A stretch of DNA of 28,000 nucleotides from a virus, in the IMG/VR virus record IMGVR_UViG_3300045988_175865, positions 90,001 to 118,000 of that record. The stretch is one strand, 5' to 3'. The translations under genes were made by a program, and so were the position numbers. The notes under the pieces are model-generated. The model did no database searches, was not told the DNA's origin, and worked only from the letters and a program-made list of their open reading frames with translations. The first letter of the stretch is position 1; each line of letters begins with the position of its first letter. Below are positions 3,781 through 22,842 of this stretch, one piece after another.

Positions 3781-3781
3781 T

Positions 3782-3973: not shown

Positions 3974-3976
3974 TAA

Positions 3977-5026: not shown

Positions 5027-5030
5027 AAAT

Positions 5031-5210: not shown

Positions 5211-5231
5211 AAATCTCATAATGTGAGATTT
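5211..5231 (-). terminator. Hairpin AAATCTCA / TGAGATTT with a 5-nt loop, followed on the minus strand by a T-rich run
   Basis: Located 37 nt downstream (minus sense) of the TAG stop of CDS 5268..5654. Flanked by T/A runs on both sides. Confidence 0.6.
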
Positions 5232-5267
5232 GAATTTTTTATTGCATTTTGTTTTAAAGCATCCATA

Positions 5268-5654: not shown

Positions 5655-5669
5655 ATAATATTTAATTTA

Positions 5670-6149: not shown

Positions 6150-6180
6150 ATTATTTAAAAACTAGTTATTATAACCTCTA

Positions 6181-6618
6181 TTAAACTCGTAGTTCTCCAT
6201 ATTGGTTTCTCATTCTTGGAGATATTCCTAAATGTACCCATGTAGTAGACCCACTTTTTTCAATAAAGCATTGATCTATAATGACTTTATTTCTAGTAAA
6301 ATAATCTTTAATAAAGTTAAAGAAGTTTTCTACTCCTTTAACAGAAGTATCTTCAGGTTGTAAATCTACTGCTTCATAGTATTGATGAGAGCTATTACTT
6401 ACGCCCCCCACAGCTTTATTAAGGCTTGGCGATCTATATCCAGAAGTAATAGTAATAGCAGAGCCTCATGCTTCTCTTAATGGATCTAAATATTCTATAG
6501 CTAGTTTACTTAGTTTTTCTATTCCCTCTCATGTAGGTAGATTTTCTATTTTTTTACTAATAGCTGTATCACTTCTTAAAAGTTCACTTAATTCAAAATA
6601 TTTAGGGGTATTTATCAT
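6181..6618 (-). CDS. Peptidase M15-type cell-wall hydrolase (VanY / L-Ala-D-Glu peptidase-like), candidate endolysin, 145 aa
   Basis: ATG at 6618. Reads FELSELLRSDTA...NLPTW(TGA)EGIEKLSKLA...LDPLREAW(TGA)GSAITITSGYRSPSLNKAVGGVSNSSHQYYEAVD...TTW(TGG)VHLG. This fits the SGYR...LN...GG..S.H...A.D...H zinc-peptidase pattern. Confidence 0.85.
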
Positions 6619-6621
6619 AAT

Positions 6622-6705
6622 TTAATCTATAATATATAATTTACCAAATTTCTCTAAAATCATATAAATATTTATTTGCGCTTTGATTTTCTTCCATGTC
6701 GTCAT
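6622..6705 (-). CDS. Possible 27-aa mini-ORF (MTTWKKIKAQINIYMILEKFGKLYIID) preceded by GGAGGTG
   Basis: ATG 6705 lies 9 nt after GGAGG (plus-strand CACCTCC at 6713-6719). The TAA stop at 6622-6624 is 3 nt before the endolysin ATG. Very short, with no homology evidence. Confidence 0.25.
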   Translation of the reverse strand: MTTWKKIKAQINIYMILEKFGKLYIID

Positions 6706-6719
6706 TTTTATACACCTCC

Positions 6720-6998
6720 TTACTTCTTATTTCATTTACGGCTATTGGCAGCAAATGTTGCTCGTTTTCTAATTGCTGGATCGGGGGATCTTTTGCCTTT
6801 AGCTATACACTCACTAGTTACTTTCCCACCACAATATTCTGTAAACTTACCTCTATTTTTCTTTTTAATATGAATCTTAGAACCTTTTTTCATCATTTCT
6901 ATGTACCCACTTGTAATATTATCTAGTCCGAGATTGTTATGATACTCTGTACTATATACCTCTACAATTTTGTTTAAAATGTCATTGTTATATTTCAT
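6720..6998 (-). CDS. Small basic hypothetical protein (92 aa)
   Basis: Track ORF 6732..6998 continues past one TGA (NSRK-W-NKK) to TAA 6720-6722. The C-terminus is Lys/Arg-rich (RGKFTEYCGGKVTSECIAKGKRSPDPAIRKRATFAANSRKW). Confidence 0.6.
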
Positions 6999-7039
6999 AC
7001 TTTATAAAATAATTAATAGGATTATTATCTAGTAATATA

Positions 7040-7126
7040 TGTTTTTGCAAAAATAATTATTTATTTAGATATTTGCAAGTATTTGGATAAATTATTTGGA
7101 TATCAGAAAGATTTATTATATATTTG
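7040..7126. promoter_or_regulatory. Divergent promoter region: palindrome TTTTTGCAAAAA (7042-7053), direct repeats TATTTGGATA (7080-7089 and 7093-7102), and TATATTTG (7119-7126, matching TAnnTTTG)
   Basis: 168-bp non-coding gap between the minus-strand gene ending at 6998 and the plus-strand gene starting at 7167. Motifs read directly from the sequence. Confidence 0.45.
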
Positions 7127-7166
7127 CATCATTCAAGTAAAATTATAAAGAGTTATATATATAAAT

Positions 7167-7859
7167 ATGGCAAAAACAAAACCTGATATAGATTCTGGAC
7201 TTTCATGACTAGAAAGAATCCTACAATTATGTAAAGAGTATGGAGTATTTAATATTTTGAAGGGGTTATTTATTCTAATTATGTTAAGTTTAACACTTAG
7301 GATTTGTTACAATCCTAGTTTTTTATTTGACAAATATACTGACTACATGATTCAAAGACATGCGAAAGAGTTACATAAAAGGACAGAATATGATCAACAA
7401 ATAAAAAGTCTCCTGCCTGTATATTTATATAAATATCATGCAGATAGGATATGAATTATTCAGTACCATAATGGTATTATGGACTGACAACATGGAACTA
7501 TGAGATTTGAATTATGTAATGATGAAGTTGAATCAATTAAAAATCAATATGATGATTTTAATCTAACCTGGATTAATCTTCCTTATTATTTAAAGACGAA
7601 CGAAGTATTTATAGGGGATATGGTTAAATTAGATAGTATTGATTCAACTCTTTATACACAACTCAAAAAAAATAATGTACAATATTTAGCCTGTACAATT
7701 ATAAAAGATAATAGTGGTTATCCAATTGGTATTTTAGGAGTGACTTGGAAAAATATTCCACCAAATATTGATAGATTACAAAATAAAATACATAACTATC
7801 TTATAGATGATAGAGCAGATATTAAAACTCTTATCCAATCTAATTATAATAAAGAATAA
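7167..7859 (+). CDS. Hypothetical membrane-anchored protein (230 aa)
   Basis: ATG 7167 is in frame with track ORFs 7257..7454 and 7500..7859, joined across 3 in-frame TGAs; two TGG codons are also present. TM-like segment GLFILIMLSLTLRI. Confidence 0.6.
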
Positions 7860-7868
7860 AAGTATAAT

Positions 7869-8807
7869 ATGCCTAAACTTAGAGGGAGTAAATTAAAATA
7901 TGTTAATGGGTATGCAGTAGATAAAGAAAATGATAATATTATATACTCTGATGAAAAGCATATTTATATGGATAAGACCGATAATTCGAAATATGAATCT
8001 GTAACGACAATAATAGGACAGTACTGTCAAAAATTTGATTCAGACTTTTGGTCATCATATAAAGCTTGTGAGGCGTTATTAGACCCCACAGTGTTTTACC
8101 CATTAAAATCAAAACTTCTTTCTTCTAAAAAATGAAAGGAGTCTTATATTGAAGAATATGGATTAGATCCTGTTGAATTTCTAAATAAGAAATCTGAAAT
8201 CCTACAAAGTTATGAAGATAAGAGGAATGCTAGTACGGAACGTGGTACTAAAATTCATGCTATGATGGAAGATCTATTTTATCAAGGGGATAAAAAGGCA
8301 ATAAGCAAATATGCAGGAGGAGGAACTTTTGAGGTAAAGAAGGGATATTATAAACTAGATATTGACAGGGCAATTTATCCTGAGTTTCTTATAAGTTATG
8401 AATTTGACGAATACTTAAAGATTGCTGGTCAAATAGATTATTTACAGATAAGTGATAATGAGATAGTTTTGTTAGATTGAAAGACTAACGGTAAGATTGA
8501 TAAAGAGTCTTATTTTGATAGAACTACTAAGAAAAGACAGATGATGCTCTCACCATTAGAAAATATTATGGATTGTAATCTATGTCACTATCAGTTACAA
8601 CTTAGTATGTACGCATATCTTCTTCAGAAGATTAATCCTAAATTCAAAATAAAAAAGCTAGCAATTGTTCATTTTGATCACGACGGTAATGAAACTGAAT
8701 ATGAAGTAAAATATTTAAAAGATGATATTGCCAGACTTCTTTTATATCATAGGAAGAAGAATAAAATAAAAGCAGAACTTGATAGAGACAAACCAATAGT
8801 ATTTTAA
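7869..8807 (+). CDS. PD-(D/E)xK nuclease of the RecB/Cas4/lambda-Exo-like type (312 aa)
   Basis: Track ORFs 7869..8135, 8262..8480 and 8541..8807 share one frame and join across two TGAs. Motifs: ERGTKIHAMME, IAGQIDYL, LLD-W(TGA)-KTNGK (D/ExK) and HYQLQLSMYAYLL (QxxxY). Confidence 0.75.
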
Positions 8808-8813
8808 AATATA

Positions 8814-9050
8814 ATGATTATGGAAAATGTAGATGATTTATATGAAAATAGAATGAAGATTTGCAAAGAATGTCCTCTATATCTAGATAGTCCTATGGGA
8901 GCTAGATGTAATTCTAGGCTATATTTATCCGAAGCTGATAAAAAGACAGTAAGTGATAGACCCAAATTAGGATATAAAAGAGGTTGTAACTGCATGTTAC
9001 AGAGAAAATTACGTATGCCCGCTGCAAAATGTGTTGTAGGGAAATGATAA
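8814..9050 (+). CDS. Small Cys-rich, probably Zn-binding protein (78 aa), paralog of the next gene
   Basis: Contains CKECP...C...GCNC...AAKCVVGK-W(TGA)-TAA. The only TGA is the penultimate codon, immediately followed by TAA. Confidence 0.6.
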
Positions 9051-9055
9051 GATTT

Positions 9056-9274
9056 ATGAGAAAAATATTACATACAATTAAAAATATTATAATAGGGTGA
9101 TATCGTAGATTCTTTAAACCTATCCCTGATTGAGCTGAAAGAAGATATAAGGTATGTTTAAACTGTCCTCATAAAGAAAAATTATTTGGAGAATACTGAT
9201 GTACTTTATGTGGATGTAATTGCTATAGTAAATCATTAGTAGAAGATGAACAATGTTATGATAATAGATGATAA
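9056..9274 (+). CDS. Small Cys-rich, probably Zn-binding protein (72 aa), paralog of the previous gene
   Basis: ATG 9056. Reads MRKILHTIKNIIIGW..PDW..VCLNCPHKEKLFGEYWCTLCGCNCYSK...CYDNR-W(TGA)-TAA. Three internal TGAs plus a terminal TGA-TAA. Absent from the track because of the TGAs. Confidence 0.55.
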
Positions 9275-9301
9275 TGTATAATTTTAAAATAATAATGAAT
9301 T

Positions 9302-9826
9302 ATGAGTAAAGAAAAGTATCTAGGAACTGATTACTATCAGTTAACAGGAAAACATTTAATGGGCAATAATATTAAACGTGAAATTGATCCTGAAGCACTT
9401 AAAAGGGCACAAGAAAAATCAGAAAGAGATCAAATGGAGTATGTAGCTAATTTAATGGCAAAAGATAAAGATTGCAAACCATATGAGAATAAGAAAATTG
9501 TTCCTACGGCAGGTAGAGTAGTTGTATTACCTTACGAAAAGAATCCTTATCGTTTACCATTACATGAAACCACCTCTGGACTTATCTTAGGTGATTTTGA
9601 AACATCTGCAACATATAAATCACAGGAAACTGGAGAACAAGAAGCCTCACAGCGTGGTATTTGGTGTTGTAAAGTTATTGCTGTTGGTAATGAATGTAAA
9701 AGTGTATTAGAAGGGGAAGATGTATATATTAATTTTACATTAGCTGCGCCACTCCCCTTTGGTGGAAAAGGATACTATACAATCAGTGAAAATAATATTA
9801 TTTGTAGTATAAGAGATAATGAATAA
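9302..9826 (+). CDS. GroES/Cpn10-like co-chaperonin domain protein with an N-terminal extension of about 65 aa
   Basis: The C-terminal region IVPTAGRVVVLPYEK...TSGLILGD...CKVIAVGNECKSVLEGEDVYINF...YYTISENNIICSIRD follows the GroES pattern (R-V-hydrophobic strand, mobile loop, G-x-V-x-A-V-G, GD-x-V, final D/E-I-hydrophobic). No TGA. Confidence 0.5.
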   Translation: MSKEKYLGTDYYQLTGKHLMGNNIKREIDPEALKRAQEKSERDQMEYVANLMAKDKDCKPYENKKIVPTAGRVVVLPYEKNPYRLPLHETTSGLILGDFETSATYKSQETGEQEASQRGIWCCKVIAVGNECKSVLEGEDVYINFTLAAPLPFGGKGYYTISENNIICSIRDNE

Positions 9827-9854
9827 GATGCACTAAAGGTGAATATAAAAAGTT

Positions 9855-10106
9855 ATGGATATGAATGAAAATTTGAATAAAGAAGGTAACTCATACCTAT
9901 TTTACACCCCTGGTCAGCTTGTAACCTTAAAACATAAGGAGCTAAATTCTCCAATAATGCTTATTCAAGAGAAAGTTACAAGGCAGTTTAAACAGGGAGA
10001 TCAGATGTATAATATCTTCAAGGGTATGAAATGTATTTGATTTGATAAAAATAATGTGCTGCAAGAAGCAGTATTTTCAACAAAAGATTTGGAATTATAT
10101 AAATAA
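9855..10106 (+). CDS. Small hypothetical protein (83 aa), resembling the YodC/DUF2158 style of small beta proteins
   Basis: Track ORF 9855..10040 continues across one TGA (KCI-W-FDKNN) to TAA 10104-10106. Pattern PGQLVTLKH...SPIMLI...C.WFD. Confidence 0.45.
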
Positions 10107-10114
10107 ACAATCAT

Positions 10115-10339
10115 ATGACTTTACAAATTGATGGATTTATAGTTACAGGGACGCCTGATGAGGTAAATACTTTTATTAAACTGTATCAGGTAAAACAATA
10201 TACCATTGTTAATTCCCAACAACCAATTATACCATTATATTATTCCCCTGATACTGATATTAAAAAGTGAGAGATAACTTGTAAAGATAGTAGTAATATT
10301 AGTAGTAATATTAATGGTAGTGTAGTTAAACCAGAATAA
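10115..10339 (+). CDS. Hypothetical protein (74 aa)
   Basis: ATG 10115 to TAA 10337-10339 with one in-frame TGA. Fills an otherwise uncalled gap. Confidence 0.4.
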
Positions 10340-10341
10340 GT

Positions 10342-11202
10342 ATGAATAAAGAAGACTTAACTCAGTTTATAGAGTGACTCCCAGTTAATATTAATGAGTT
10401 TAAAGATAAAACTCCTGATGAAGTAGTCACTATTCTAAATAAATTAGCCCAAACAGAAGAGGGGTTAAATGAAATATCTGGTCTTATTAGTCAATTTAAA
10501 CAAAAACAGATGTTTAAATTTGGGGGTAAATTAGGGCAACTTATTAATAAATTTCAACAAGGAGGAAAATCTGATCAGAGAAAATCTGATAAAGTAAGAA
10601 AAAATTTTCATGGAGTTAGTTTATTTGAATATGGTCCTAATAAATATAAAACTGCAAGAGGCACTTTAGTTAGAGATTTAAAACCAGGAGTTCATCAAGA
10701 AACTCTTCCTAATGGTATAGGTCTAAGACAGATTACTAGAAATAATACTACAACATCAGAATTAGTATCTCCAGATAAAAGGGATACATTATATATTAAT
10801 AATGCAGATGCTGGAAGAATTGACAGTAATATTAATGATGCTGGTATATTAGGTAAATTAGGATTACGGACACCAACCCCTGTAAGTTCTAATTTTAGAA
10901 GATTACAAGGTATTTTTAATGCCAAAAAATTTAATACAGGAGGAGAGGTAACTAAAGATGGATACAAGTCTAGTTCTGTAACAAATCCTGATGGTTCTAT
11001 AAAACAAACTTTAAGATATCCTTCTGGGAAAGAAGAATATAGAACTATAAGTAGAGACAAACAAGATACTATATATACTAATAGTGTCAATGGTATTACT
11101 AGAAGAAATAATCCTAAATGATACCACTTTGTTGACAAAGAAGCTAATAAAAAAGGCTATGCAGAAAGACAAAGACGATTTAATGAACATTACAAAGAAT
11201 AA
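10342..11202 (+). CDS. Hypothetical basic protein (286 aa) with internal repeats
   Basis: ATG 10342 is in frame with track ORF 10510..11121 and extends over TGAs at both ends to TAA 11200-11202. Repeats: SPDKRDTLYINNADAGR / SRDKQDTIYTNSVNGITR, and GG motifs FKFGGKL, FQQGGKS, FNTGGEV. Confidence 0.6.
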
Positions 11203-11786
11203 TGACAGATATATTCCTTTATAATAATACTACAGGATCTCTTGAACTTAATGTTCATGATATCCTACTTGTAAAGGAGTTTGAGGCATTATGAGACTTA
11301 GATAGAAATAAATGTAGTGAAGATCCTACAGGTAAAAAGAGACTACGAGCATGAAAAGAATTTAAATATATTTGATTATTTGCTGATTGGAAGAGTCCAT
11401 ATCAACAATATTTAGAGATGGAAAAACACAAAGCAGCTATGGAAGATTCAGGACTATCTGATGAAGAATGAAATGATCCCACTTTTAGAGCTGCCGTTAG
11501 AAAATATATTGAAATTAAAGATTCTTCTCGTATTCTAAGTCTTATAAAAACTGCCTTCAGAACTCTTGAAAAGATGAGAGTATCATTAGACAATATTGAC
11601 CTTGAAGAAAGAGATCCTGTAAATAACAAACCAATCTGAAAAGCTAAAGATATTCTTGATAGTATTGGTTCTATCGGCACTATGACTGATAAGTTAAAGG
11701 AACTAGAACTAAACTATAAGAAAGATCAAATTGAAAGTAGTTCTAAAGTTAGAGGTGGTTTGGAGCGAGGATTTATGGATGAGTAA
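11202..11786 (+). CDS. Hypothetical protein (194 aa) immediately upstream of TerL; small-terminase position, unproven
   Basis: ATG 11202 overlaps the previous TAA (TAATG). 5 in-frame TGAs and 1 TGG, ending at TAA 11784-11786. Invisible in the ORF track; the antisense ORF 11402..11680 is its shadow. Confidence 0.55.
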
Positions 11787-11792
11787 TGAACT

Positions 11793-14111
11793 ATGGCGAA
11801 AAAACTAAGTATTGAAGCTGAAATGAGAGCTGCTCAGAGAGATATGAAGAAGAAGTTGAGTGGTGAAGATAAGGAAGAGGTAAAGAAGGTTAAAAAGAAA
11901 GCTAAACCAGTAAAAGAACAATATAAGGAAATAAAAGAATCTCTTAAAGAAAAAGAGGCTCCTAAGGAAATTGCTTTTAAAGATAATTATGAAGAGGAAT
12001 TAATTAGGGAATTATTTAAAGGTGATATTACTGTTTCCCAAGCTCTGGGTAAAGAAGATGAGCCTGAACAACCTAAAAGAGAGAAAAGTGGATTGTGGGA
12101 TTATGTTCTCGAAGATGAAATAGAATTCTTTGACCCTGAATGTAGTTATGAATTGACTGGTTATAGACCTATAGATGAAACTCATGGATTAGATTTTGAT
12201 CCAGCACCTTTTTGTGAAGCGGGAAGAGTCTATACTGAAACTGGTCACTATACTGAATATCCGTCTGGATCTAAACCATATGCTGATTTCTGACAAGAAC
12301 AATTAGATAGATGCATTAATGGTTATACGATTGGTAAGTATAGAATTACTGGAGATAATTATTTCTTCCTTAATTTTTATAGGATGCCTGTTGTAGACGA
12401 TTCTAAAAAACTGGCGGAAGCTTCTGGAGAAGGATTTCCAAAATTTGTAGCAGAGCAATATAAATTCTTTCATTATTTTGAAATGTGCGAACTACTTAAA
12501 AAAGACTGCGTTGCACTAAAAAGCCGAGGCATAGGCTGAAGTGAGATAGGAGCTTGTTTAGGAGTTCGTCCATTTATAACAGGAAGAAATTTTAATTCAA
12601 CATATATTACTTCTTCACTAAACTATCTGGAGCCGACATTAAATAAATGTTGAGCCCAGCTTCATTTTTTAAATGGAAACACCAACGGTGGATTTAGAAG
12701 ACCTATGATGAAGATTAACAATGCTCTTCATAAAAGAACTTCTCTTACTAATAATGAAAATCGCGAATGAGGCAGATTAAATAATATAGAAGGAATTGTA
12801 GCAGATAATATTAACAAAGTCCGTGGTATTCGTTCTAATAGACTTTTCTGAGAGGAGGGAGGGTCCTTCAAAAATCTAGAGACTGCTTGAATTAAAGGAG
12901 AGGCATTAGTAACAGTTGCGGGTGCTAGAAAAGGCATTATGAGTGTCTGAGGTACAGGAGGTGATTCAGATGCTTCTGCACTAGAGGGTCTATCTAAAAT
13001 GTTTAATAATCCAAAAGAATACAATGTACTTCCATATAAAAATAATTACTCTGAGGATGGTGAAGTTCAATATACTGGTTATTTTATACCCGCTTTTAAT
13101 ATTATGCTTAAAAAAGGTTTCTATGATAATAGAGGAGTTACAGATAGGAAAAAAGCAAGAGAACATTATGAAACTGAAAGAAAAAAGAAGTCTGGGCAAA
13201 ATTTATTAGATTATTGTGCAGAATTTTGTTTCACCCCTAGTGAGGCATTATTAAAACAAGGTGATGGTATTTTTGATCCAGTACTTATAGCAGATCGTTT
13301 AACTCAACTTCGTATACAAAAAGTAGGGGTAAAACCACAACAAGTTGATTTGTTATGAGATGTTCCAAAAGGGTTAGAAAATAATCCAAGAAATAAAGTT
13401 AAACTTATTCCTAATGCACAAGGAAAAGTATTTATATATGAACCTCCTCTTAGAGATGGGGAAGGGAATCTTTATAAAAATCTCTATATTGCAGGAATTG
13501 ACTCTATTGATCAAGGTACTGCAGATTCCTCAACAAACAATGATGTATCTGATTTTTGTATAGTAATTAAGAAAAGAATCTTAGGTTCCAATTCTTCAAA
13601 TTATGTTGCAATTTATAAAGATAGACCTAGGGACATTGCTACGGCTTATGAAAATGCTATGAAATTATGTGTATATTATAATTGTAAGGCGATGCTAGAG
13701 CATACAAAAATTAGTATTATTATGTATTTTCGTTCTAAAAAGAAAGATAATCTTTTTATGAAGAGACCAAAATCAACGATGCCTGATATTCGAAAAGGTA
13801 ATTCTGGAATGATTGGATATCCTGCAACTGAAACGTATCTACGTCATGGACTTGAATTAATTAGTAGATTTGTAGATGAATCTTGTTATTCTATACAGAT
13901 TGATGAAATGCTAGAACAATTACTTAAATATTCCTGGGAAAATAAACGTAAATTTGATATTGTTGCAGCTATGATAGCTGCTGAATTAGGGGATGAAGAC
14001 CTTTTAGGATTTACTCCAAGGGCTCAAGATGAAGTAAGAAATTCATGAAAGGATTTTGGATGATATTATGATTCAAATGGACAAAAACGATATGGCATTA
14101 TACCTTCGTAA
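11793..14111 (+). CDS. terL: Terminase large subunit (772 aa in table 4)
   Basis: Track ORFs 11793..12293, 12999..13358 and 13659..14048 share one frame and join over 10 in-frame TGAs. Motifs: ITGDNYFFLNFYRM, KSRGIGW(TGA)SEIG (Walker A-like), RLFW(TGA)EEGGSF (Walker B-like), W(TGA)GTGGD, YIAGIDSIDQG (nuclease Asp). Lys/Glu-rich N-terminal extension. Confidence 0.9.
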
Positions 14112-14400
14112 AGAAAGTAATCTTGAGTGTAGAGTTAGAGAACTAATTAACCAAGTTACACAGTCTGAGTATATTTCTCCTATTGATGTTAAATATGAAG
14201 ATGAGATATATACATTAAGACTTGGATTAAATTGTAAAGATGCAGCTCCAATATCTTTTGGGTATCAAGGTAGTGAAGAAGGATTTTTGAAATTTTTAGA
14301 AAAAGAATTTAAAAAGAGAAAACTTCAGAATATTAATTATACTACAGGAGTACTTATAAATGGAGATAGTAATTTGCATTTTCCAATAATAGAGTTATAA
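14068..14400 (+). CDS. Hypothetical protein between TerL and portal (about 110 aa)
   Basis: Track ORF 14056..14400 begins at TTG; ATGs follow at 14068, 14077 and 14092. It overlaps the table-4 C-terminus of TerL in another frame, so the start is uncertain. No TGA. Confidence 0.5.
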   Translation: MIQMDKNDMALYLRKESNLECRVRELINQVTQSEYISPIDVKYEDEIYTLRLGLNCKDAAPISFGYQGSEEGFLKFLEKEFKKRKLQNINYTTGVLINGDSNLHFPIIEL

Positions 14401-14402
14401 AA

Positions 14403-15578
14403 ATGAATGTTGATAGAGAAATAAAACAAATTGACAAAGCTATAAGTGAGTTAATATACCCTAAGATAGCACTTCAAAAAGCTTATAATTACTATCACAG
14501 TAGACGAGATGCAGATCAGTTTAGGCATATTGAAGAAAATTATGGTATTGGTGTACCCACTGGAATTACATTTAATCCTCTTGTTCGCCCTCATATAGAT
14601 AGGTTAATTGGAGAATATTTAGGATTAAATCAAGATTTAAAAATAACATGTAAAGATGAGGAAACAGTTTCTAATATTATGAGAGAAAAACAATTATTAA
14701 TTAGTAAAGAACTGTTTAATTATCTAAAAAAATATTTAGAAAATAATATAATATCTTCTATTATTAACAATGAAGAAGTTTCAACGGATCCATTTATTGA
14801 GAAACAATTAAATAAAATTAGTAATAGCATTAATGATTCTTTTGTATCTCAATATGAAATTGCAGCTCAGAATATTCTTGACTATTTAAAGCAGTCAAAA
14901 AATATAGATTTAACAAATAAAATGCATAGTCTGCTTACAGATTTATGTATTACTGGTACATGTTATTATAGAGTAAGACCTTCTAACAGTGGAGATAATA
15001 TACAATTTGAGGTATTGAACCCTATTAATACATTTGTAGAAAAAAATCCAAATTCAGACTATTTAGCAGATTCATACCGTGTAGTGGTTAGAAGGTATAT
15101 GTCTGTAGAAGATGTTTTACTAGAATATCGTAAAGATCTAAAGGAGGAACACATAAAACTTCTAAAGGAAGAGAATAACAGCACAATTGAGTCAGACGGT
15201 CCTTCTTATTATATTAGAGCCACATCTCCTGAAATAGCTGGAGTTTGAAACAGTACTCATACTGGAATTTTAGGGGGACTAGAAACACATCCTATATGAC
15301 CAGGTGAAACTAGCAGAACTAATAGGTACACTTACCCAAAAATGTGAACTGTTTATGATGTAGAATGAATTGAAGTTGATTATAAAACAGGAAAACAGAC
15401 TAGACATGAAGGTACACGTATTGGAGAAGAAATTTATATAACTAGGGGGGAATCTGAAAATATTATTAGAACAAAAGATAATCCGAATAAATGTAGATTA
15501 AGTGTTAATGGTTTATTTTTCCTAGATAAGAATGGAGATCCAAACTCCTTGATTATCAAGACAATGGATCAACAGGAT
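14403..15578 (+). CDS. Portal protein, exon 1 (392 codons)
   Basis: ATG 14403. N-terminal KAYNYYHSRRDADQF is portal-like. The frame continues past 4 in-frame TGAs to ...IIKTMDQQD, then hits TAA at 15579, which is the first codon of the intron. Confidence 0.8.
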
Positions 15579-15934
15579 TAAGATTATATGAGTCCTGTCT
15601 AAACCTCGTGAATTGCTGGAAACTCTTAAATTGAATGAAAGTAAATCTAAGACAATCAGCAGCCAAGCTCGTAAGAGAAGGTTCAACGACTATCCTGAAA
15701 GGGAGTACACTCAAGTGAGTGGAAGTGCGGGGGCAAATTTGATTTAAACTAATTATAAGTAGTTATGAAATATAACGAAATAGAATTTAAAAATCTAGTA
15801 GCTACAGAATGTTTTTCAACAGATTTATTTGAATTAGTTTTAGAACAAATTTGTATGATATAGTCTAATCTATATGGTGACATATAGCAGTCGCAAGACG
15901 GGTGTAAATTAACGACTTACACTGAATAAAAATG
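15579..15934 (+). ncRNA. Group I-like self-splicing intron (356 nt) with no homing-endonuclease ORF
   Basis: P1: exon CAGGAU (15573-15578) pairs with intron GUCCUG (15592-15597), placing U15578 opposite G15592. The last intron nucleotide is G15934. GNRA hairpins: CTATATG-GTGA-CATATAG (15870-15887) and GTC-GCAA-GAC. Hairpin CACTC-AAGT-GAGTG (15708-15721). Long-range complement CGACT (15687-15691) / AGTCG (15889-15893). Removal restores the portal frame. Confidence 0.75.
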
Positions 15935-16969
15935 AAATATGACTTATTAGTATTTTATCGAGATAACTTAATTTCTAGTTCAGGTACTGTTGGAGATTGA
16001 GTTGACTTAGCTTATGTACCACAGGTTTTAGGAGTAGATTTACCAGAACGATTACAAAAATGATTAGCTTATAAAAAGCAAGGTATGGGCTTAATTGATA
16101 GTAGTCAAGAAGGAGCTCAAACAATGAATACGATATTTAATGGTTATGATGATACTATTAAAGCACAAAGTATCCAGGCAATTAATTTAGCTATACAATC
16201 AATTCAACAACAGGTTTCTATGGTCACTGGTGTTTTACCTGAGGCTCTAGCTCAGTATGAACAACGTGATGCTGTTTCAAATGTTAAGTTGGGAGTACAA
16301 ACTACAATGCTTTTAACTAAGCAAATTTTCAATGCTATGGATACTGTATATCAAGAAGCAAATTATGATATGCTTAACCTTGCGAAACTAGTTTGACCAA
16401 AAGGAATAACAGGCACAATTGTTTTAGGTAATTATTCCAAAATATTTACAGCCCTTCCCCAATATTATACCTTAACTGATTTTGATATTCATATTGAAGA
16501 TAGTACTAAATCTTATCAGAACGTACAATCATTAATTGCAATCAGTGGAGAGCTTGTTAAGAGCGGAGTAGCAGATTTAGGAGATATTACAAATATTATA
16601 ACTGCATCTTCTATTACTGAATTAAAGCGATATATTGATCGCTCTATAGCTCGTAAAAAAGAGGAAAATGATACTATTGAACAGTTACAACAACAAATTC
16701 AACAGTATGAACAAAATTCTAAAGAACTTCAAAAAGTTAATCAACAATTACAAGAACAAATTCAACAGCTACAGAATCAATTACAAGCTAATAATCAAAC
16801 TAAACTTGAAATTGAAGCAGAAAAGGTTGCAATTGAGAAAGAAAGGATGAGGAATGATAAGGAATATAATGATAAGAGTCTAGAAGTTAAAAATAAACAA
16901 ATTGATGCACAGGTTGCTGAGATATATGATGATAATCCGTATAATAATAAAATAAAAAGTGTAATATAA
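15935..16969 (+). CDS. Portal protein, exon 2 (344 aa plus stop), with a Gln-rich coiled-coil C-terminus
   Basis: Starts KYDLLVFYRDNLISSSGTVGD-W-VDLAYVPQ and includes track ORF 16085..16396 in the same frame. Three in-frame TGAs. TAA at 16967-16969 overlaps the next ATG. Confidence 0.8.
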
Positions 16970-17769
16970 TGAGTAACTTAAATGTTCGTTTAATAGTTTA
17001 TCCAAATTGCAAATTGTCTGCTATTGATGATAGTAGTTATACTAATCTGCCAGGTAGATATGGGACATTATTTGAAAATATAGCGGATTATGTCTCTTTA
17101 GAGTTTCTAGTATATTCTAATACAAATGAAATTGAACCCAATACTTTAATTTTTGAAAACTATCAACATAACAGAGATAATTTTTTAACAGATAGTATTT
17201 TTCCAATTATAAAAGATGGAGTTCATCATTATTATAAAATAGTTATTCCCAAACTAGAAACTCTATTTATCAAAGATACTCCTTCAGAAGATTTATACTC
17301 TTTAATATATTTAAAAGATCAGACATTCTACTATAACAATAATTTTTATGTTGCAAAACAGAATTATGAAACTGCTCCTACTTCTAAAGAGGAACTATTA
17401 AATAAAATTGATCTTATTTTAAAAGAATCTGAAGCAGAAATTGTAACTAATTATATTGATCTTTATAAACTGTGTGGCAGTCAATCTTTTTGCTGCAAAA
17501 AAACAGTATTTACAATTTGCAAATTAACACAATGTTTACTAAATTTACAACGCCAAATTATAGATCATGCTATTTATAATAAGTGTGCTGATTATAAAGA
17601 TATTATAGAAAAAAGAGACTTTATTCTAAGTACAATTTATGTTCTAGATTATTTAAAGGATATTAATAATTTTCAGGAAGCACAACGTATTGTAGAAAAT
17701 GTTCTGGGATGTAATGATATTTGTAATACAGATAATACATTAAATAACAATTGCGGGTGTAATGGATAA
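16969..17769 (+). CDS. Hypothetical protein (266 aa) with a Cys-rich C-terminus
   Basis: Uninterrupted ORF with no Trp codon. C-terminus reads CGSQSFCCKK...CKLTQC...GCNDICNTDNTLNNNCGCNG. Confidence 0.6.
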   Translation: MSNLNVRLIVYPNCKLSAIDDSSYTNLPGRYGTLFENIADYVSLEFLVYSNTNEIEPNTLIFENYQHNRDNFLTDSIFPIIKDGVHHYYKIVIPKLETLFIKDTPSEDLYSLIYLKDQTFYYNNNFYVAKQNYETAPTSKEELLNKIDLILKESEAEIVTNYIDLYKLCGSQSFCCKKTVFTICKLTQCLLNLQRQIIDHAIYNKCADYKDIIEKRDFILSTIYVLDYLKDINNFQEAQRIVENVLGCNDICNTDNTLNNNCGCNG

Positions 17770-17959
17770 ACTATATGAAACTTTATATATCCTCTATTCT
17801 ACTGAGCTAGTAAATCTAAATATTGGATATTCTTTAGATAGAAAGAAACTAAATCAAATGATAGATATTATAGGAGCAATAGAATATATAAAAAATACTA
17901 ACAATGATCAAGAGGATATTATTAATATAATTAATTACTATAATAAATATATCAACTAA
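17762..17959 (+). CDS. Small hypothetical protein (65 aa)
   Basis: Its ATG overlaps the end of the previous gene by 8 nt. TAA stop. Confidence 0.4.
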   Translation: MDKLYETLYILYSTELVNLNIGYSLDRKKLNQMIDIIGAIEYIKNTNNDQEDIINIINYYNKYIN

Positions 17960-17966
17960 ATTAATA

Positions 17967-20900
17967 ATGGTTTCGGATACATATTATAATGCAATGGGTT
18001 CACGCTCATTTTATAAAGGTACATCTTTTAGATGTACAGAATGATGCTTAGAAACTCACTACTTTAACAATGAGGACTTTATTGATTTTGTATCATATAA
18101 AGGGGCTCTTCTTAGATGTACAAGAAGTCATATTTCCTCTGTTGATAATGAACCATCTCTTGTTATTAATAATAACTTAATTGTTGGAATTAATGACTCT
18201 CCTGTTTGGGAATTTATAATGGGAGGAGGATCAATTGAAACAGGTCAATTAAATATTGATTTCAAACTAGAAGACGGCCATCTTTGAGTTTTTTGTAATG
18301 AAAAATGGAAGGACTTAGGAAATGTTAAAGGAGATCAAGGTGAAACTGGAATACAAGGAATACCAGGAGACCCTGGTAAGGGAGTGCCAAGTGGGGGTAA
18401 TACAAATCAGGTACTAGTAAAACAGTCCAATTCTGATTATGATACTATTTGAAAAACTATAAATACTTCTGGAGGAGAGCTCCCAACGTTTTCTGCAAAA
18501 GTATTGAGTACTACTAGTACGGAGGATGCTCCAGAAGCTACTGTAACTTTAAGTGACTCTAATGAATTTCAGTTTTCATTTAAATTACAAAAAGGACAAG
18601 ATGGAGTTAATGGTACTCCAGGAATTAATGGAGACGGCTTAAAGTACATATATATTCGAACTACTAAAGCAAATAAGCCAACAACTCCAACTGGTAGCGG
18701 AGAAGATGTAGAGTTGCCTACTGATGTAGAGTGGGGTCTATGAAAGTCTTCCCCTACAGGTGTAGATTCTACATATAGATGGGAATGAGTTAGTGCTAGT
18801 GTTTATATTAACGGTAGTTGAGAGTCTTATAGTGAACCATCTTTATTTGCTTATTATGCTCTTGATGGAGTTAATGGAACTGCTCCAAATTATAAAACTT
18901 ACGTTTATGCTCAATCTAATTCTAAACCAGATAAACCTAACTTCAATACTCCTCAACCTCCTACAGAATCGCAGTGAAAAGATTACCCATTAAGTAGTGG
19001 GCAGTGATGGCAATGTATAGGAGTTGTGGATGGACAAACAAATACAGTTATTCAATGAGGAGAAGTATTACCTGTAAATGGTAAAGATGGAACTGCTCAA
19101 GATGGAAAATTTACTGAGTTTAGATTTGCTGTAAATAGTAGTAATATTACTCCTCCAAGTCTATCAAATACAGTAAGAACTCCAGAGGGATGGTCTTTAA
19201 CACCTCCAACTAAGAGTAACTCTCAATACTTATGGATGACAACAGCAGTTATTAATCCTAATGATACTTTGTTTAGAAATTGATCTACTCCAGTATGTAT
19301 TAGTGGTGAAAATGGTGAACCAGGAGCTACTGGAGCTGCTGGTAATTGAACTTCTTATGTATTTAAAAACAGTTCCTCTACGCCAGATACTCCTACAGGC
19401 ACTGATCCTGTCCCCACAGGATGATCTGATGCACCAACATCATCAGATGGTACTTGATGAATGTCTAAAGCATTAATTAGTGGAGTTACTCAAAAAGTGG
19501 TTGGAGAATGATCCGCTCCACAACGAATTACGGGAGAAAAGGGACAAGATGGTGAAGACGGAACTAATGGAACTGATGGGATTTATACAGATTATAAATT
19601 TGCAAAAAGCTCTTCCAAAAGTGAAGTGCCATCAATTAACAAACAAAGTTCTAATCCTGGTAGTAATTGAAGCGATCAATGGCCCGTAATTAATTCTGGA
19701 GAATTTCTCTGAATGACTTTTATTAAAAAGAATTCTAAAGATGATTCTATTGTATTAGGGGAAGAATGAGCAACTCCTGTATGTATTACAGGAGAACAGG
19801 GTCCTCAAGGTCCTATTGGATCTACAGGAGCATCAGGTACTCCAGGTGTGGGTATTGTTATGAGATTTTGTAATGGTACTGACACAGAGCCAAGTAATGC
19901 TAAACCAACAAATACATTAGATACTGCAAGTCAAGGATGAACTGTTACTCCTCCCTCAACTACAGAAGATTATCCTAGATTATGATTTATACAGGGTAGA
20001 ATAAAATATTTAAATAATGAGGATCGAGATGGGCAACTTGATGGTAGTTGAAGTGATCCTGCATTGTTTAATGGGCCTGCAGGAGTAAATGGAGAAGCAG
20101 GTAAAAAAGGTCAACTGATTTATCCAGTAGGTGTTTATGATATAAATACTACATATAGTACTACTGAAGAAAGTGCTCCTTATGTCTATGTCTATAATTC
20201 AGAATCTAGTAAATCTGGATACTACTTATTATCAGCAGTTACCAGTTGAACAGGAACTGATCATAATAATTGGTCTCCAGTTGAATCAATTGATAATGAA
20301 GAGCATTATTGGACTAAATTTAACCACTTTGAGGCAATTTTTGCGGATGTGTCTATTTTCCCCAACTCTCTTGTTGGATCAGCTGTTTTTAATGGAGATT
20401 ATATGTTTAGTCAAACTGGTAAGGAGTCAACAGGAATAACTACAAATTACAATAAGTTTGATCCCGAAGATCTATCCAAATGATACCCTGCTTACTATAT
20501 AAATTTAAGAACGGGAGAATGTTCATTAAACTTTGGCCAATGTACATTTAAATATTCAGATTCCTTTAATTCAAAAACGTTAATGACTATTGAAGGAGGT
20601 ATTAATATAATCCCAGATATGATCTCTCCATCTAGATATAGTAACTATATTTCCACACCTTGTATTTCAATTTTAGCAGATGAAGAAGGATTAGCAAATG
20701 GCAATATATATAAGTTCGCTTTATCAGAGGAGTACCTACCTATTACTAAGGGAGTTATTAAGGGTTCTATTGATAATTGTACATATTTAAATGGACTAGA
20801 AGAAAATGATGAAGATTATGTTGTAATATCTCCAGCAGAAAGTACAGAGAGTAGTAATGGTATAATAAACTTTGTAACATATCAAAATGGTACTATAAGA

Positions 20901-21203
20901 AGTACAATATCTGAAATATACCTAGGAGCGGGCAGAACTTTATCATATTCATTTGTGCCAATTAAATATTTAGGAGACTCACTTTATAGCACTTATACTT
21001 CTATCTTTGATGTTGCAGATACAGAAGATGGAACAACTGCTTATAGAGGTATATCTGGTATACTAAATATATCTAATGTTAATGATTTTGTATTAATTGT
21101 TTGCCATCAATCAGGACAGGGTATACAATATGGGGGTCTTACTTTTACAAAAGCTGGGTCTTTTCTAGTTTCTAAAGTTCTTGATGTTAACCCAGTAAAA
21201 TAA
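17967..21203 (+). CDS. Large tail-fibre or receptor-binding protein (1078 aa) with collagen-like Gly-X-Y tracts and six Trp-rich repeats
   Basis: ATG 17967 is in frame with track ORFs 18504.., 20064.. and 20583..21203. By my count it has 23 in-frame TGAs and 10 TGGs. Examples: GDQGETGIQGIPGDPGKG, GQDGVNGTPGINGDG, GEQGPQGPIGSTGASGTPG. The C-terminal 200 aa or so are non-repetitive. Confidence 0.85.
18640..20130 (+). repeat. Six tandem protein-level repeats of about 80-90 aa: G-X-Y tract, then Y/F-x-F, then P..GW(S/T)..P, then LW(M/F), then W(S/A).P..I.G
   Basis: Manual alignment of the translated fibre. The repeats are degenerate at the DNA level, and the boundaries are approximate. Confidence 0.65.
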
Positions 21204-21216
21204 TATATTTTAAGGA

Positions 21217-22842
21217 ATGAAAAATATTAAACCAGATATTGATCTTCAAAATTCAATTGAACGTAGTAGGATTACTGAATCTAGAGAGTATTACAAAGGC
21301 AAGTCTTTTAACTTTGCTAAAGAATGGCACCCTGGAATAAATTATTTTAATGATAATTATATTACTGACTTTGTATCTTATAAAGGAACTTTATTAGTAT
21401 GCCGTAGAACACATCTTTCTAGTAATAGTAACAGACCTGAGCTACTATTTGAAGATCCAAAAGATTCAAATCAGCCAACTGGAGTAAAATCTGAATATTG
21501 AGATTTTATATTGGCTGGAACTCCAGGACCTGGAGGAAAAGTATATATCCCTAACTATAATACATCTACTGGAGAACTTTCTTGAGTTATATCTGATAAT
21601 ATAGAAAGTATTAATCCTGTAAATATAAAAGGGGAAGATGGTAAAGATGGAAGAGATGGTAAAGATGGAAAGAATGGAACAAATGGAAAAGATGGTGATA
21701 CTTATGTCCCACAACCAGAGCTTGATAATAACTACATAGTATTTAAATCTTTACAAGGAAAAGAAACTATTAAAGTAGATTGTAGTAACTTAAAGGGGGA
21801 ACCTGGAGAAAAAGGTGAAAAGGGTAATGATTGAATATTTAGTAAGGTTAATACTATTACCTTGTCTCCTGATGATAGCGGATATGCAGAAATATCTGCA
21901 GATACTCCAGGAAGTGAATCTACAACTTATACTTTAACTTTAGGAATCCCTCAAGGAAAAACAGGTCTTAAGGGGAATAAGGGAGAAAAAGGAGAGAAAG
22001 GAGATCAGGGAGAAAAAGGAGAAGCAGGTCCTACCCCTCTTTTTAAACTTATAAGGAATGAGAGTACTAGATCTATAGATTTATATTGATCTATTGATGA
22101 AGATTCAGACTGAGTGAATCTAGGAAGTGTTGGAGGGAAATCCCCAAAATTATTGAGAGTTTTTGATGTTGCAGAACACCCAAACGCTCAAAATAATACT
22201 AGACGAGATGATCGTATAGTATGAGGTTATGATGGAGTTGCAGTTAGTGAATGAACTACTCTATGTTATCTAGATGAACTTAGAGGAGATGAAAATATAT
22301 GAATAAGTACTGAGGAAGTTAAACCAGGAGAGGGTAATCATCCAGTAATGGAAGTTAGAGACCCAGATAATCCTGATAAGACTATCCAAGTTGAAGATAG
22401 AGATAAAATATGGTATGATCCATTTGATTATAGTTTAGATGAATTTAGCTCATTTGAATTTGTATTCAATGCTTATAAGGAGGCGGGGGGTCAATTAAGT
22501 GAGGATGCTTTTAGAAATACCTTTGCTAATGTTTCTAACTTAACCATTAAATTTTGGAAAAGAACATTAGAGGATTTTCTCAAAACTGATGCATCTAGTC
22601 ATCAAAATGAGCTGTGGCTAGTTAGATCAACAACTGGAACTAGTGATGATACTTTTGAAGAGTATTATGCAGTACAGTCTCCTGAAGTTGGTAAATGAAT
22701 GTGAGAAAAATGGGGATCTGGATCTATTAATGTAGATTTAAGTGATTATATTACAAAAGCTGAGGCAAATTCATATATACAAGAACAGGTAAATAACATA
22801 CTATCTTCTCTAGTAATAGATGGGGGGGAATTAACAATATAA
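21217..22842 (+). CDS. Second collagen-like tail-fibre protein (541 aa)
   Basis: Track ORFs 21217.., 21862.. and 22348.. share one frame, joined over TGAs. G-X-Y tracts: GEDGKDGRDGKDGKNGTNGKDGD, GEPGEKGEKGND, GKTGLKGNKGEKGEKGDQGEKGEAGP. The N-terminus is paralogous to that of the 17967 gene. Confidence 0.8.

What the first reader, a model, noticed from the sequence alone, without database searches (positions are those of the whole stretch)
15573..15937. ORF-less group I-like intron interrupting the portal gene
The portal frame ends ...KTMDQQD at 15578 and meets TAA immediately. It resumes as KYDLLVFYRDNLI at 15935 in a different frame.

The intervening 356 nt are non-coding and show group I hallmarks:
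- A P1 helix pairs exon CAGGAU (15573-15578) with intron GUCCUG (15592-15597), placing the canonical U-G wobble exactly at the 5' splice site.
- The terminal intron nucleotide is G (15934).
- There are two GNRA-capped hairpins (GUGA at 15877-15880 and GCAA at about 15894).
- A P8-like hairpin lies at 15708-15721.
- The distant complement CGACU/AGUCG is a P7 candidate.
- From memory, strings such as GUCUAAAC, AGACAAUC, GCAGCCAAG and GGUUCAACGAC resemble core segments of phage and Tetrahymena group I introns.

Splicing gives a continuous 736-aa portal.
Basis: partly seen in the sequence, partly recalled or inferred. Interest (0 to 1): 0.8.

Follow-up and report, generated by a model that had tools for sequence, protein, structure and literature searches.

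The report
Self-splicing intron in phage portal gene
A 356-base self-splicing group I intron that has lost its own endonuclease gene interrupts the portal gene of a gut phage that reads TGA as tryptophan; it is real and very well supported, but it is an ordinary kind of element for such phages.

Summary
The finding holds. Bases 15579-15934 are a group I intron splitting a 736-aa portal gene (14403-15578 + 15935-16969, TGA = Trp).

- **Family match:** Rfam Intron_gpI scores 67.1 bits (gathering score 50) when the searched stretch is small. Whole-window scans miss it.
- **Boundaries:** A ~96% identical phage contig lacks exactly these 356 nt and encodes an uninterrupted portal. The junction D392|K393 lies in a gap-free conserved block.
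- **Fold:** Nine diverged copies at the same site keep the fold. 23 of 74 pairs show compensatory changes (8 expected), including two in P10.
P7 is 15688-92/15861-65, not CGACU/AGUCG. The "P8-like" hairpin is P7.2. There is no P2.
- **New:** "ORF-less" is secondary. The AT-rich P8 loop holds a 32-codon stump (15765-15863), which equals codons 1-13 plus 270-288 of a 288-aa endonuclease (phrog_681). That ORF is intact in 1129-nt relatives. It was lost here by a 769-nt deletion between AGTAGCT repeats.
- **Population:** Relatives show every stage from intact endonuclease gene to intron-less allele. The intron-bearing allele is the common one.

This is a new member of a known kind. No RNA evidence was available.

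The parts
14403..15578 (+). Portal gene exon 1 (392 codons, 4 in-frame TGA = Trp)
   Evidence: Table-4 translation. The spliced product hits phrog_6547 portal at E = 9e-45. The exon-1 product is protein P0241, found on 287 contigs.
15579..15934 (+). Group I intron, 356 nt, IA-type, endonuclease gene deleted
   Evidence: RF00028 at 67.1 bits, E = 1e-16. Exactly absent from the ~96% identical L001. Covariation.
15935..16969 (+). Portal gene exon 2 (344 codons plus stop)
15579..15581 (+). In-frame UAA stop formed by the first three intron bases; halts ribosomes at the 5' splice site
   Evidence: Present in every same-site intron examined. The role is inferred.
15572..15598 (+). P1 hairpin: exon ACAGGAU (15572-78) pairs with guide sequence GUCCUGU (15592-98); U15578.G15592 marks the 5' splice site
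   Evidence: Six of the seven pairs, including the U.G wobble, are invariant in 9 of 9 sequences; the outermost pair A15572-U15598 is kept in 8 of 9. Recovered by RNAalifold.
15584..15589 (+). P10, guide-sequence strand (UUAUAU)
   Evidence: Pairs with 15937-15942. Two positions show compensatory changes across variants.
15937..15942 (+). P10, 3'-exon strand (AUAUGA)
15604..15610 (+). P3 5' strand (CCUCGUG)
   Evidence: Pairs with 15726-32. Two pairs with double-sided and two with one-sided changes.
15726..15732 (+). P3 3' strand (UGCGGGG)
15614..15661 (+). P4-P5 domain: P4 15614-19/15656-61, P5 15624-28/15648-52, P5a 15630-32/15644-46
   Evidence: P4 and most of P5 are invariant. P5a covaries (AU to UA in 3 sequences).
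15662..15682 (+). P6 (15662-64/15680-82) and P6a (15668-70/15675-77) with GUAA loop
   Evidence: Compensatory changes in 1 P6 pair and 3 P6a pairs.
15688..15692 (+). P7 5' strand (GACUA), with the conserved J6/7 UCAAC just upstream
   Evidence: Matches the Rfam consensus GUUCAAnGACUA. Invariant in 9 of 9.
15861..15865 (+). P7 3' strand (UAGUC); UAG is also the stop codon of the stump ORF
15693..15721 (+). P7.1 (15693-96/15701-04, GAAA loop) and P7.2 (15708-12/15717-21): IA-type peripheral hairpins between P7 and P3'
   Evidence: One compensatory pair in P7.1 and two in P7.2. RNAalifold recovers both.
15733..15854 (+). P8 stem (15733-41/15846-54) enclosing the 104-nt AT-rich loop
   Evidence: All length variation among variants (235-1129 nt) lies in this loop.
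15765..15863 (+). 32-codon stump of the intron's endonuclease gene: codons 1-13 fused in frame to codons 270-288 of the 288-aa ORF
   Evidence: The intact ORF in L126/L127 matches phrog_681 endonuclease at E = 3.5e-20.
15797..15803 (+). AGTAGCT, the single remaining copy of the 7-nt direct repeat that flanks the 769-nt deletion; the junction lies after 15803
15870..15922 (+). P9 (15870-76/15881-87, GUGA loop), P9.1 (15890-92/15897-99, GCAA loop), P9.2 (15902-07/15917-22)
   Evidence: Compensatory changes in 2, 1 and 6 pairs respectively.
15934..15934 (+). Terminal G (omega-G), the last intron base
   Evidence: Boundary fixed to the base by the intron-less allele. Conserved in all variants.

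Best explanation
[quoted passage not shown] It sits between codons D392 and K393 of the portal gene of an uncultivated gut phage with a genome of about 160-170 kb that reads TGA as Trp.

Inferred mechanism, by analogy with characterised group I introns:
1. The late packaging transcript (TerL, a 110-aa ORF, portal) contains the intron.
2. Ribosomes translating exon 1 stop at the UAA formed by intron bases 1-3, so they do not unfold the ribozyme.
3. The exon end ACAGGAU pairs with the internal guide GUCCUGU to form P1, with the U.G wobble at the 5' splice site.
4. The core folds: P3-P8 with the P3/P7 pseudoknot, and peripheral P5a, P6a, P7.1, P7.2, P9, P9.1 and P9.2, with four GNRA loops.
5. A free guanosine bound at P7 attacks after U15578.
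6. P10 (15584-89 with 15937-42) aligns exon 2. G15934 then enters the G site and the exons are joined as ...GAU|AAA..., giving mRNA for a 736-aa portal.

The copy in this window cannot move on its own.
- Its P8 loop once held a 288-codon endonuclease gene (phrog_681; weak DUF723 and T5orf172 signatures).
- A 769-nt deletion between two AGTAGCT repeats left a 32-codon in-frame stump.
- It persists because it splices.
- It can still spread by recombination, or with endonuclease supplied by co-infecting relatives that keep the gene.
For: **Shown**
- RF00028 covers the full model at 67.1 bits, E = 1e-16. A relative scores 82.6 bits.
- The core is similar to introns in 550 phage records.
- L001 aligns to window 4822-15578 and resumes at 15935. 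The insert is therefore exactly 356 nt and its ends cannot be slid by one base.
- The junction lies in a gap-free conserved block in 23 full-length portals.
- Nine distinct same-site introns were compared, from portals that are 60-100% identical. 97.3% of cells are paired. 23 of 74 pairs show double-sided change, against 8.0 +/- 1.9 in shuffles (0 of 500 reach it) and 0-4 when the partner strand is slid.
- RNAalifold independently recovers every helix that is not a pseudoknot.
- The MFE z-score is -3.6.
- P10 covaries at two positions.
- The identical 356-nt intron is present in 8 of 8 sampled contigs from different samples. Its exon-1 product is on 287 contigs. An essential gene could not persist like this unless it is expressed.
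- The intact 288-aa ORF lies in the same P8 loop in L126/L127, and a frameshifted copy lies in L124/L125.
- That ORF matches phrog_681 at E = 3.5e-20.
- The deletion repeats are shown.

**Inferred**
- The chemistry of splicing.
- The role of the UAA stop.
- Mobilisation in trans.
Against: - There is no RNA or biochemical evidence.
- Rfam's standard whole-window scans report nothing. The hit appears only when the searched stretch is short.
- P1, P4 and P7 never vary, and P5 shows no compensatory change, so covariation says nothing about them.
- There is no P2; only 5 nt separate P1 from P3.
- P10 starts 2 nt inside exon 2.
- The intron is AU-rich (33% GC), which usually makes folding depend on cofactors.
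- The endonuclease family assignment rests on a PHROG match. The Pfam hits are below their thresholds.
Confidence: 0.93

Rival explanations
1. The portal is genuinely made as two polypeptides. The intron no longer splices. Exon 1 terminates at UAA, and exon 2 is translated from the in-frame AUG formed by the last three intron bases (15932-15934), which sit in an A-rich leader.
For: In every same-site variant examined the intron ends in AUG, in frame with exon 2 and preceded by an A-rich run. Gene callers do call a 345-aa product from this AUG.
Against: - The split falls inside a strongly conserved contiguous block.
- The ribozyme core and peripheral helices are maintained by compensatory changes, including P10, which only matters for exon ligation.
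- Uninterrupted alleles at ~96% identity coexist.
- The terminal G is needed anyway, so only the preceding AU needs explaining.
Confidence: 0.03
2. The insert is a dead relic or an assembly artefact, and the window comes from a defective genome.
For: No expression data. The intron is AT-rich and carries a deleted ORF.
Against: - The same 356 nt, base for base, occur in 8 of 8 independent assemblies.
- The allele is on hundreds of contigs, up to 193 kb.
- The catalytic core is intact and scores above Rfam's threshold.
- Among listed members of the 90% cluster, intron-bearing alleles outnumber intron-less ones by contig count.
Confidence: 0.02
3. The gap is bridged by another recoding device: an intein, a group II intron, or translational bypassing (hopping) as in T4 gene 60.
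For: Relatives do carry inteins or LAGLIDADG elements in TerL, so other mobile elements circulate in this lineage.
Against: - The insert opens with a stop codon and shifts the frame, so it cannot be an intein.
- No group II model hits in Rfam.
- 356 nt is about seven times the T4 gene 60 gap.
- The sequence matches the group I model from end to end.
Confidence: 0.01

Closest known systems
Phage IA-type (IA2-like) group I introns, e.g. T4 td, Staphylococcus Twort/Kayvirus introns, DNA-polymerase introns of T7-like and N4-like phages
   Same: - Same conserved core strings: AAUUGCnGGAAA, CAGCAGCCAAG, GGUUCAACGACUA, GAUAUAGUCUAAUC.
- P7.1/P7.2 lie between P7 and P3', and P9.1/P9.2 extend the 3' end.
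- An in-frame stop lies at the intron start.
- The endonuclease ORF sits in a peripheral loop and its 3' end runs into the core.
- blastn finds the core in 550 phage records.
   Different: - The host gene is a portal gene. I found no explicit earlier report of that in the searched library, which is not proof that none exists.
- There is no P2.
- The host phage reads TGA as Trp.
- The subgroup label rests on architecture recalled from the literature, not on a classifier.
Lysin-gene group I intron of Streptococcus thermophilus phages and its three deletion derivatives (Foley et al. 2000, cited in PMC8541194)
   Same: One intron at one site in a late gene across a phage population, present as a full-length form with an ORF and as several shorter forms with internal deletions of that ORF.
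   Different: Different gene, host and endonuclease. Here at least four independent stumps (356, 348, 335 and 328 nt) and five minimal forms (235-278 nt) are seen, along with intact and frameshifted ORFs.
Intron-dense, stop-codon-recoded gut phages: crAss-like Zeta/Delta groups (Yutin et al. 2021, PMC7886860) and TGA-recoded 'Agate' phages (Borges et al. preprint, 10.1101/2021.08.26.457843)
   Same: - Genome size about 150-190 kb and gut origin.
[quoted passage not shown] - The portal is distantly related (25-27%) to crAss-like portals.
   Different: - Membership of either named clade was not shown; the accessions I tested were absent from Yutin's tables.
- Those surveys found introns through endonuclease domains, so ORF-less copies like this one were outside their reach.
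Homing cycle of parasitic introns (Gogarten and Hilario 2006, PMC1654191)
   Same: All predicted stages coexist in one gene of one phage lineage: empty site, intron with intact endonuclease, frameshifted endonuclease, deleted endonuclease, and minimal intron.
   Different: The cycle is a model, not a family. The direction of the changes is inferred from comparison, not observed.

Membership tests
Group I intron (Rfam RF00028) | Covariance-model score at or above the curated gathering score | tested here: met
   67.1 bits against 50, E = 1e-16, model positions 1-253. 82.6 bits for the 266-nt relative. Missed by whole-window scans because of the speed filters.
Group I intron (Rfam RF00028) | 5' splice site follows a U that forms a U.G wobble in P1 with an internal guide sequence | tested here: met
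   U15578.G15592 within a 7-bp P1. The wobble and the five adjacent pairs are identical in 9 of 9 variants; the outermost pair is kept in 8 of 9.
Group I intron (Rfam RF00028) | Intron ends with G (omega-G), and exon 2 can pair with the guide sequence (P10) | tested here: met
   G15934, with the boundary fixed by the intron-less allele. P10 is 15584-89/15937-42, with two compensatory positions.
Group I intron (Rfam RF00028) | Conserved core P3-P9, including the P3/P7 pseudoknot, maintained in evolution | tested here: met
   Compensatory changes in P3, P5a, P6, P6a, P8 and P9. P4 and P7 never vary and P5 shows no compensatory change, so they are uninformative, but they match the Rfam consensus.
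Group I intron (Rfam RF00028) | Precise removal restores a continuous, conserved ORF; intron-less alleles exist | tested here: met
   Uninterrupted 736-codon alleles are also present in L003-L010.
Group I intron (Rfam RF00028) | Guanosine-dependent self-splicing | not testable with these tools
   Needs an in vitro transcript with GTP, or RT-PCR.
Subgroup IA (IA2-like phage introns) | Extra hairpins P7.1 and P7.2 between P7 and the 3' strand of P3 | tested here: met
   15693-15704 and 15708-15721, with 1 and 2 compensatory pairs. Also predicted by RNAalifold. That this feature defines IA is recalled from the literature.
Subgroup IA (IA2-like phage introns) | P2 hairpin between P1 and P3 | tested here: not met
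   Only CUAAA (15599-15603) separates P1 from P3. Rfam forces a 3-bp 'P2' onto the P1 loop. I therefore file it as IA-type and leave the exact subgroup open.
Autonomous mobile intron (intron plus homing endonuclease) | Encodes an intact endonuclease ORF | tested here: not met
   The window has only a 32-codon stump, 15765-15863. Relatives L126/L127 have the intact 288-aa ORF, phrog_681 at E = 3.5e-20.
Autonomous mobile intron (intron plus homing endonuclease) | Signs of homing: the intron is more conserved than its host gene, and flanking exon sequence is co-converted | tested here: inconclusive
   - Over the stretches that align (the P8-loop segment is missing from the shorter copy), the L017 and window introns are 89-94% identical while their portals are about 62% identical.
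- Intron-bearing alleles of the window/L101 lineage share synonymous exon-2 variants at +12, +18, +21 and +24. The intron-less alleles lack the first three, and most lack the fourth.
- Mismatch peaks within about 90 nt of the site.
- However, the L127 lineage has the 'intron-less' flank, and similar divergence peaks occur elsewhere in the window.
Intein | In-frame insertion translated with the host protein | tested here: not met
   The insert starts with TAA and is 356 nt long, which shifts the frame by +2.

The most novel reading that the evidence does not exclude
The intron may be more than a tolerated parasite and may act as a timing or quality switch for portal synthesis in a phage that changes its genetic code during infection.

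- Every same-site variant examined keeps a UAA at intron bases 1-3.
- Every one also keeps an in-frame AUG formed by the last three intron bases.
- Unspliced RNA could therefore yield two portal halves (392 and 345 aa), while spliced RNA yields the full protein.
- The balance could depend on translation, GTP level or the code switch.

Nothing here excludes this. Nothing supports it beyond the conserved UAA and AUG, and shared descent plus the need for a terminal G may explain those.
Probability: 0.04. Interest if true: 0.6.

Novelty: new member of a known kind. Interest (0 to 1): 0.3.

Why it matters
- **Annotation.** This portal is called as two genes (392 + 345 aa) in hundreds of public assemblies. 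Rfam's standard pipeline misses the intron when a 28-kb window is scanned. Surveys that look for endonuclease domains cannot see ORF-less copies. Intron load in recoded gut phages is therefore probably under-counted.
- **Evolution.** One site in one essential gene shows, within a single phage lineage, every stage of the homing cycle. The stages run from empty site, through intact, frameshifted and independently deleted endonuclease genes, to a 235-nt minimal ribozyme. This makes a compact natural data set for how mobile introns decay yet persist.
- **What it does not do.** It does not change what is known about how group I introns work.

Tried and rejected
- **Whole-window Rfam scans.** Both gathering and E-value modes gave no hit. 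This is a filter artefact, not absence, because the 901-nt scan hits.
Rejected after alignment to the Rfam consensus and the covariation test.
- **First DNA pattern for relatives.** I gave it the wrong spacer length and it found nothing.
- **Attempts to find the intact intron ORF that failed:**
  - DNA patterns from L036 found nothing.
  - A 38-aa query was too short.
  - A 40-aa protein search found only another stump, P0121.
  - Pfam on the N-terminus gave nothing.
  - tblastn against phages gave only E = 0.6-1 hits to annotated homing endonucleases.
  - The exhaustive HMMER job with P0121 found only P0121 itself.
  - What worked was the cluster-member list followed by a contig look-up.
- **Portal N-fragments of 431 and 544 aa.** Considered as further insertion sites and rejected. 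They end at in-frame TGA = Trp codons that were read as stops.
- **Another intron in the 3501-3977 gap.** Nothing found.
- **Placing the phage in Yutin's groups by accession.** Not found in their tables.
- **PDB sequence search with the endonuclease.** No hit.
Full report

Yes. The window (31% GC) is fragmented under the standard bacterial code but resolves under table 4. Summed ORF length rises from 6430 to 11465 aa. The portal gene has 7 in-frame TGA and no TGG. TGA outnumbers TGG in nearly all genes of the window.

Read this way, an ORF starting at 14403 ends ...KTMDQQD at 15578 and meets TAA. A second ORF carries on as KYDLLVFYRD from 15935, in another frame. Joined, they give 736 aa. That product matches phrog_6547 'portal protein' at E = 9e-45 over residues 26-718. 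It also matches hundreds of full-length proteins of 731-743 aa at 100% coverage, some of them annotated as P22_portal. The terminase large subunit (phrog_6681) lies just upstream.

**2. Boundaries.**

The decisive result is an intron-less allele. Contig L001 has the same gene order and is ~96% identical. It aligns to window 4822-15578 and resumes at 15935, and its portal gene is one ORF of 736 codons.
- The insert is therefore exactly 15579-15934, 356 nt. Shifting either end by one base would change the joined sequence.
- In an alignment with 23 full-length homologs, the junction D392|K393 sits in a gap-free, highly conserved block...NGDPNS-I-KT-DLQD|KYDLL-FYRDNLI-SSGT....

**3. What is it?**

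Rfam's group I model (RF00028) matches 15545-15887 over its whole length at 67.1 bits (gathering score 50), E = 1e-16, but only when the searched stretch is short. Scans of the whole 28-kb window report nothing in either mode. This is an effect of the speed filters and is worth knowing.

The core resembles introns in 550 phage records, including Staphylococcus Kayvirus, crAss-like cr116_1, Acinetobacter phages and the PhAPEC5 DNA-polymerase intron.

**4. Structure and covariation.**

Pattern and protein searches recovered homologous introns at exactly the same codon boundary. They come from portals 60-100% identical to this one and measure 356, 348, 335, 328, 278, 276, 266, 261 and 235 nt.

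I wrote an explicit structure in window coordinates:
- P1 15572-78/15592-98
- P10 15584-89/15937-42
- P3 15604-10/15726-32
- P4 15614-19/15656-61
- P5 15624-28/15648-52
- P6 15662-64/15680-82
- P6a 15668-70/15675-77
- P7 15688-92/15861-65
- P7.1 15693-96/15701-04
- P7.2 15708-12/15717-21
- P8 15735-41/15846-52
- P9 15870-76/15881-87
- P9.1 15890-92/15897-99
- P9.2 15902-07/15917-22

On the nine-sequence alignment:
- 97.3% of cells form standard pairs.
- 23 of 74 pairs show changes on both sides, against 8.0 +/- 1.9 in shuffles. None of 500 shuffles reaches the observed value.
- Sliding the partner strand by 1-3 columns gives 0-4 such pairs. The six-sequence version gave the same picture.

RNAalifold was given no structure. 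It recovers every helix that is not a pseudoknot, adds a covarying P5a (15630-32/15644-46), and extends P8 by two pairs. The single-sequence MFE fold of the 266-nt variant shows the same helices, with z = -3.6.

P10 covaries at two positions: AUAU/AUAU here, AUAC/GUAU in L017, and GUAU/AUAC in L013. This ties the 3' splice site to the guide sequence. P1, P4 and P7 never vary and P5 shows no compensatory change, so they carry no covariation information. They do match the family consensus.

- The proposed P7 is wrong.
- The 15708-21 hairpin is P7.2.
- There is no P2; five bases separate P1 from P3.

The architecture, with P7.1/P7.2 and P9.1/P9.2, is that of phage IA-type introns. I leave the exact subgroup open because P2 is missing.

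**5. 'ORF-less' is a secondary state.**

All length variation lies in the P8 loop. The window's loop contains a 32-codon ORF, 15765-15863: MKYNEIEFKNLVA-TECFSTDLFELVLEQICMI.
- A partial locus (L036) showed the same first 13 codons continuing as real coding sequence.
- A 30-aa protein present on at least 24 contigs (P0121) has the first 21 residues (one substitution) plus the same last 9, so it is a different deletion.
- After several dead ends, the cluster-member list and contig look-up produced full-length copies.
- L126/L127 carry an 1129-nt intron with an intact 288-aa ORF in P8. L124/L125 carry an 1126-nt intron with the ORF frameshifted.
- The ORF matches phrog_681 'endonuclease' at E = 3.5e-20. 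It has sub-threshold Pfam hits to DUF723 and T5orf172 and no PDB sequence relative.

The window's stump equals codons 1-13 plus 270-288, fused in frame. In L124 both breakpoints end in AGTAGCT, so the loss is a 769-nt deletion between 7-nt direct repeats.

Deleting that segment from L124 in silico gives 357 nt. This differs from the window's intron at 23 positions, all within the first 155 nt. The remaining ~200 nt are identical. The window's intron is therefore also a recombinant of two intron lineages.

The stump's stop codon is the UAG of the P7 3' strand. The ORF's end therefore overlaps the ribozyme core, which explains why the C-terminal codons survive.

**6. Population picture.**

- The window's exon-1 product (P0241) is on 287 contigs, and the index lists it in 500 blocks. 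Eight of eight sampled loci carry the 356-nt intron base for base, with the same flanks.
- Among the listed members of the 90%-identity cluster, intron-bearing forms sit on about 410 contigs and uninterrupted forms on about 27.
- Dozens of more distant clusters of portal N-halves of 388-400 aa exist, from 92% down to 45% identity. Three of three sampled have an ORF-less homologous intron at the same site.
- Fragments of 431 and 544 aa are not introns. They end at in-frame TGA codons read as stops.

**7. Mobility.**

- Intron and host gene have different histories. Over the stretches that align, the L017 intron is 89-94% identical to this one, yet the portals are only about 62% identical.
- Mismatch between the window and L001 peaks at 13-15% within about 90 nt of the site, against 4.2% overall.
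- Intron-bearing alleles of the window/L101 lineage share four synonymous exon-2 variants. The intron-less alleles lack three of them, and most lack the fourth.
- This fits co-conversion during homing, but two facts weaken it. The L127 lineage carries the 'intron-less' flank, and comparable divergence peaks occur elsewhere in the window. I rate it as suggestive only.

**8. Comparison with what is known, and verdict.**

- Group I introns in phage late genes (terminase, lysin, capsid, tail) are well documented. A population of deletion derivatives was described for the S. thermophilus phage lysin intron.
- Gut phages of 145-192 kb with TGA or TAG recoding and very high intron density are described (PMC7886860). 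TGA-recoded 'Agate' phages with a group I intron endonuclease are also described.
- I found no explicit report of a portal-gene group I intron in the searched library. That is weak evidence of novelty.
- The host phage's portal is 25-27% identical to crAss-like portals. I did not establish which clade it belongs to.

The element is a new member of a known kind, and its interest is moderate to low. What is missing is any RNA or biochemical evidence of splicing.

Noticed in passing
window 1-28000: The window uses TGA as a sense (Trp) codon. Stop-to-stop ORF content nearly doubles under table 4. TGA outnumbers TGG in nearly all genes: 11:0 in 1156-3501, 11:2 in TerL, 7:0 in the portal. No tRNA gene, and so no suppressor tRNA, lies in the window.
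   Followed up: partly
window 15545-15887: Rfam's standard procedure misses this intron when the whole 28-kb window is scanned, in both gathering and E-value modes. The intron nevertheless scores 17 bits above the gathering threshold when 901 nt are scanned. Routine annotation of such phage genomes will under-report group I introns.
   Followed up: yes
L109 1253-3706; L126 1-1209; L114 1220-1750: Close relatives carry other mobile elements in the neighbouring terminase gene. One TerL is 817 aa with a LAGLIDADG_3 hit. Another is 1125 aa with Hom_end_hint/Hom_end, which is intein-like. The window's TerL (11787-14108, 772 aa from its start codon) is uninterrupted.
   Followed up: no
window 15908-15916 (loop of P9.2): Most of the 9-nt loop of P9.2 (AUUAACGAC) is invariant (UAACGA) in all nine variants, while its stem changes at all six pairs. 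This suggests a tertiary contact whose partner I did not identify.
   Followed up: no
L021-L100 (e.g. L032, L055, L078): The 20-nt P3-P5 motif GAATTGCTGGAAACTCTTAA occurs in about 70 other metagenomic and viral contigs, in unrelated flanking sequence. Sources include marine and other non-gut samples. Some contigs have two copies 300-1400 nt apart, so this intron family is widespread and sometimes multi-copy within one gene region.
   Followed up: no
L127 2866-3732: The intact intron endonuclease ORF has no TGA codon, and its single Trp is TGG. The surrounding portal uses TGA only. This hints at foreign origin, or at expression before the code switch. One codon is too few to decide.
   Followed up: no
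window 17931-21200 and 21214-22839: Two large ORFs downstream (1090 and 542 codons stop-to-stop) have G-x-x collagen-like repeat stretches. Pfam Collagen hits are faint, and are for the homologous genes in relatives. They have the heaviest TGA use in the window (23 and 10). Against L001, divergence peaks at about 17256-17375 and 18246-18305, and there is a small overlap or indel at 18598-18615.
   Followed up: no
P0145: One NCBI copy of the portal N-fragment is filed under a Cellulosilyticaceae (Firmicutes) metagenome-assembled genome. Yet the portal's only named relatives are crAss-like phages of Bacteroidetes. The host of this phage lineage is therefore unclear.
   Followed up: no
window 5271-6621 (minus strand): A short block on the opposite strand includes an endolysin-like Peptidase_M15 gene (6184-6621, phrog_894 at E = 3e-28). 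It sits between the replication-type genes and the packaging module.
   Followed up: no
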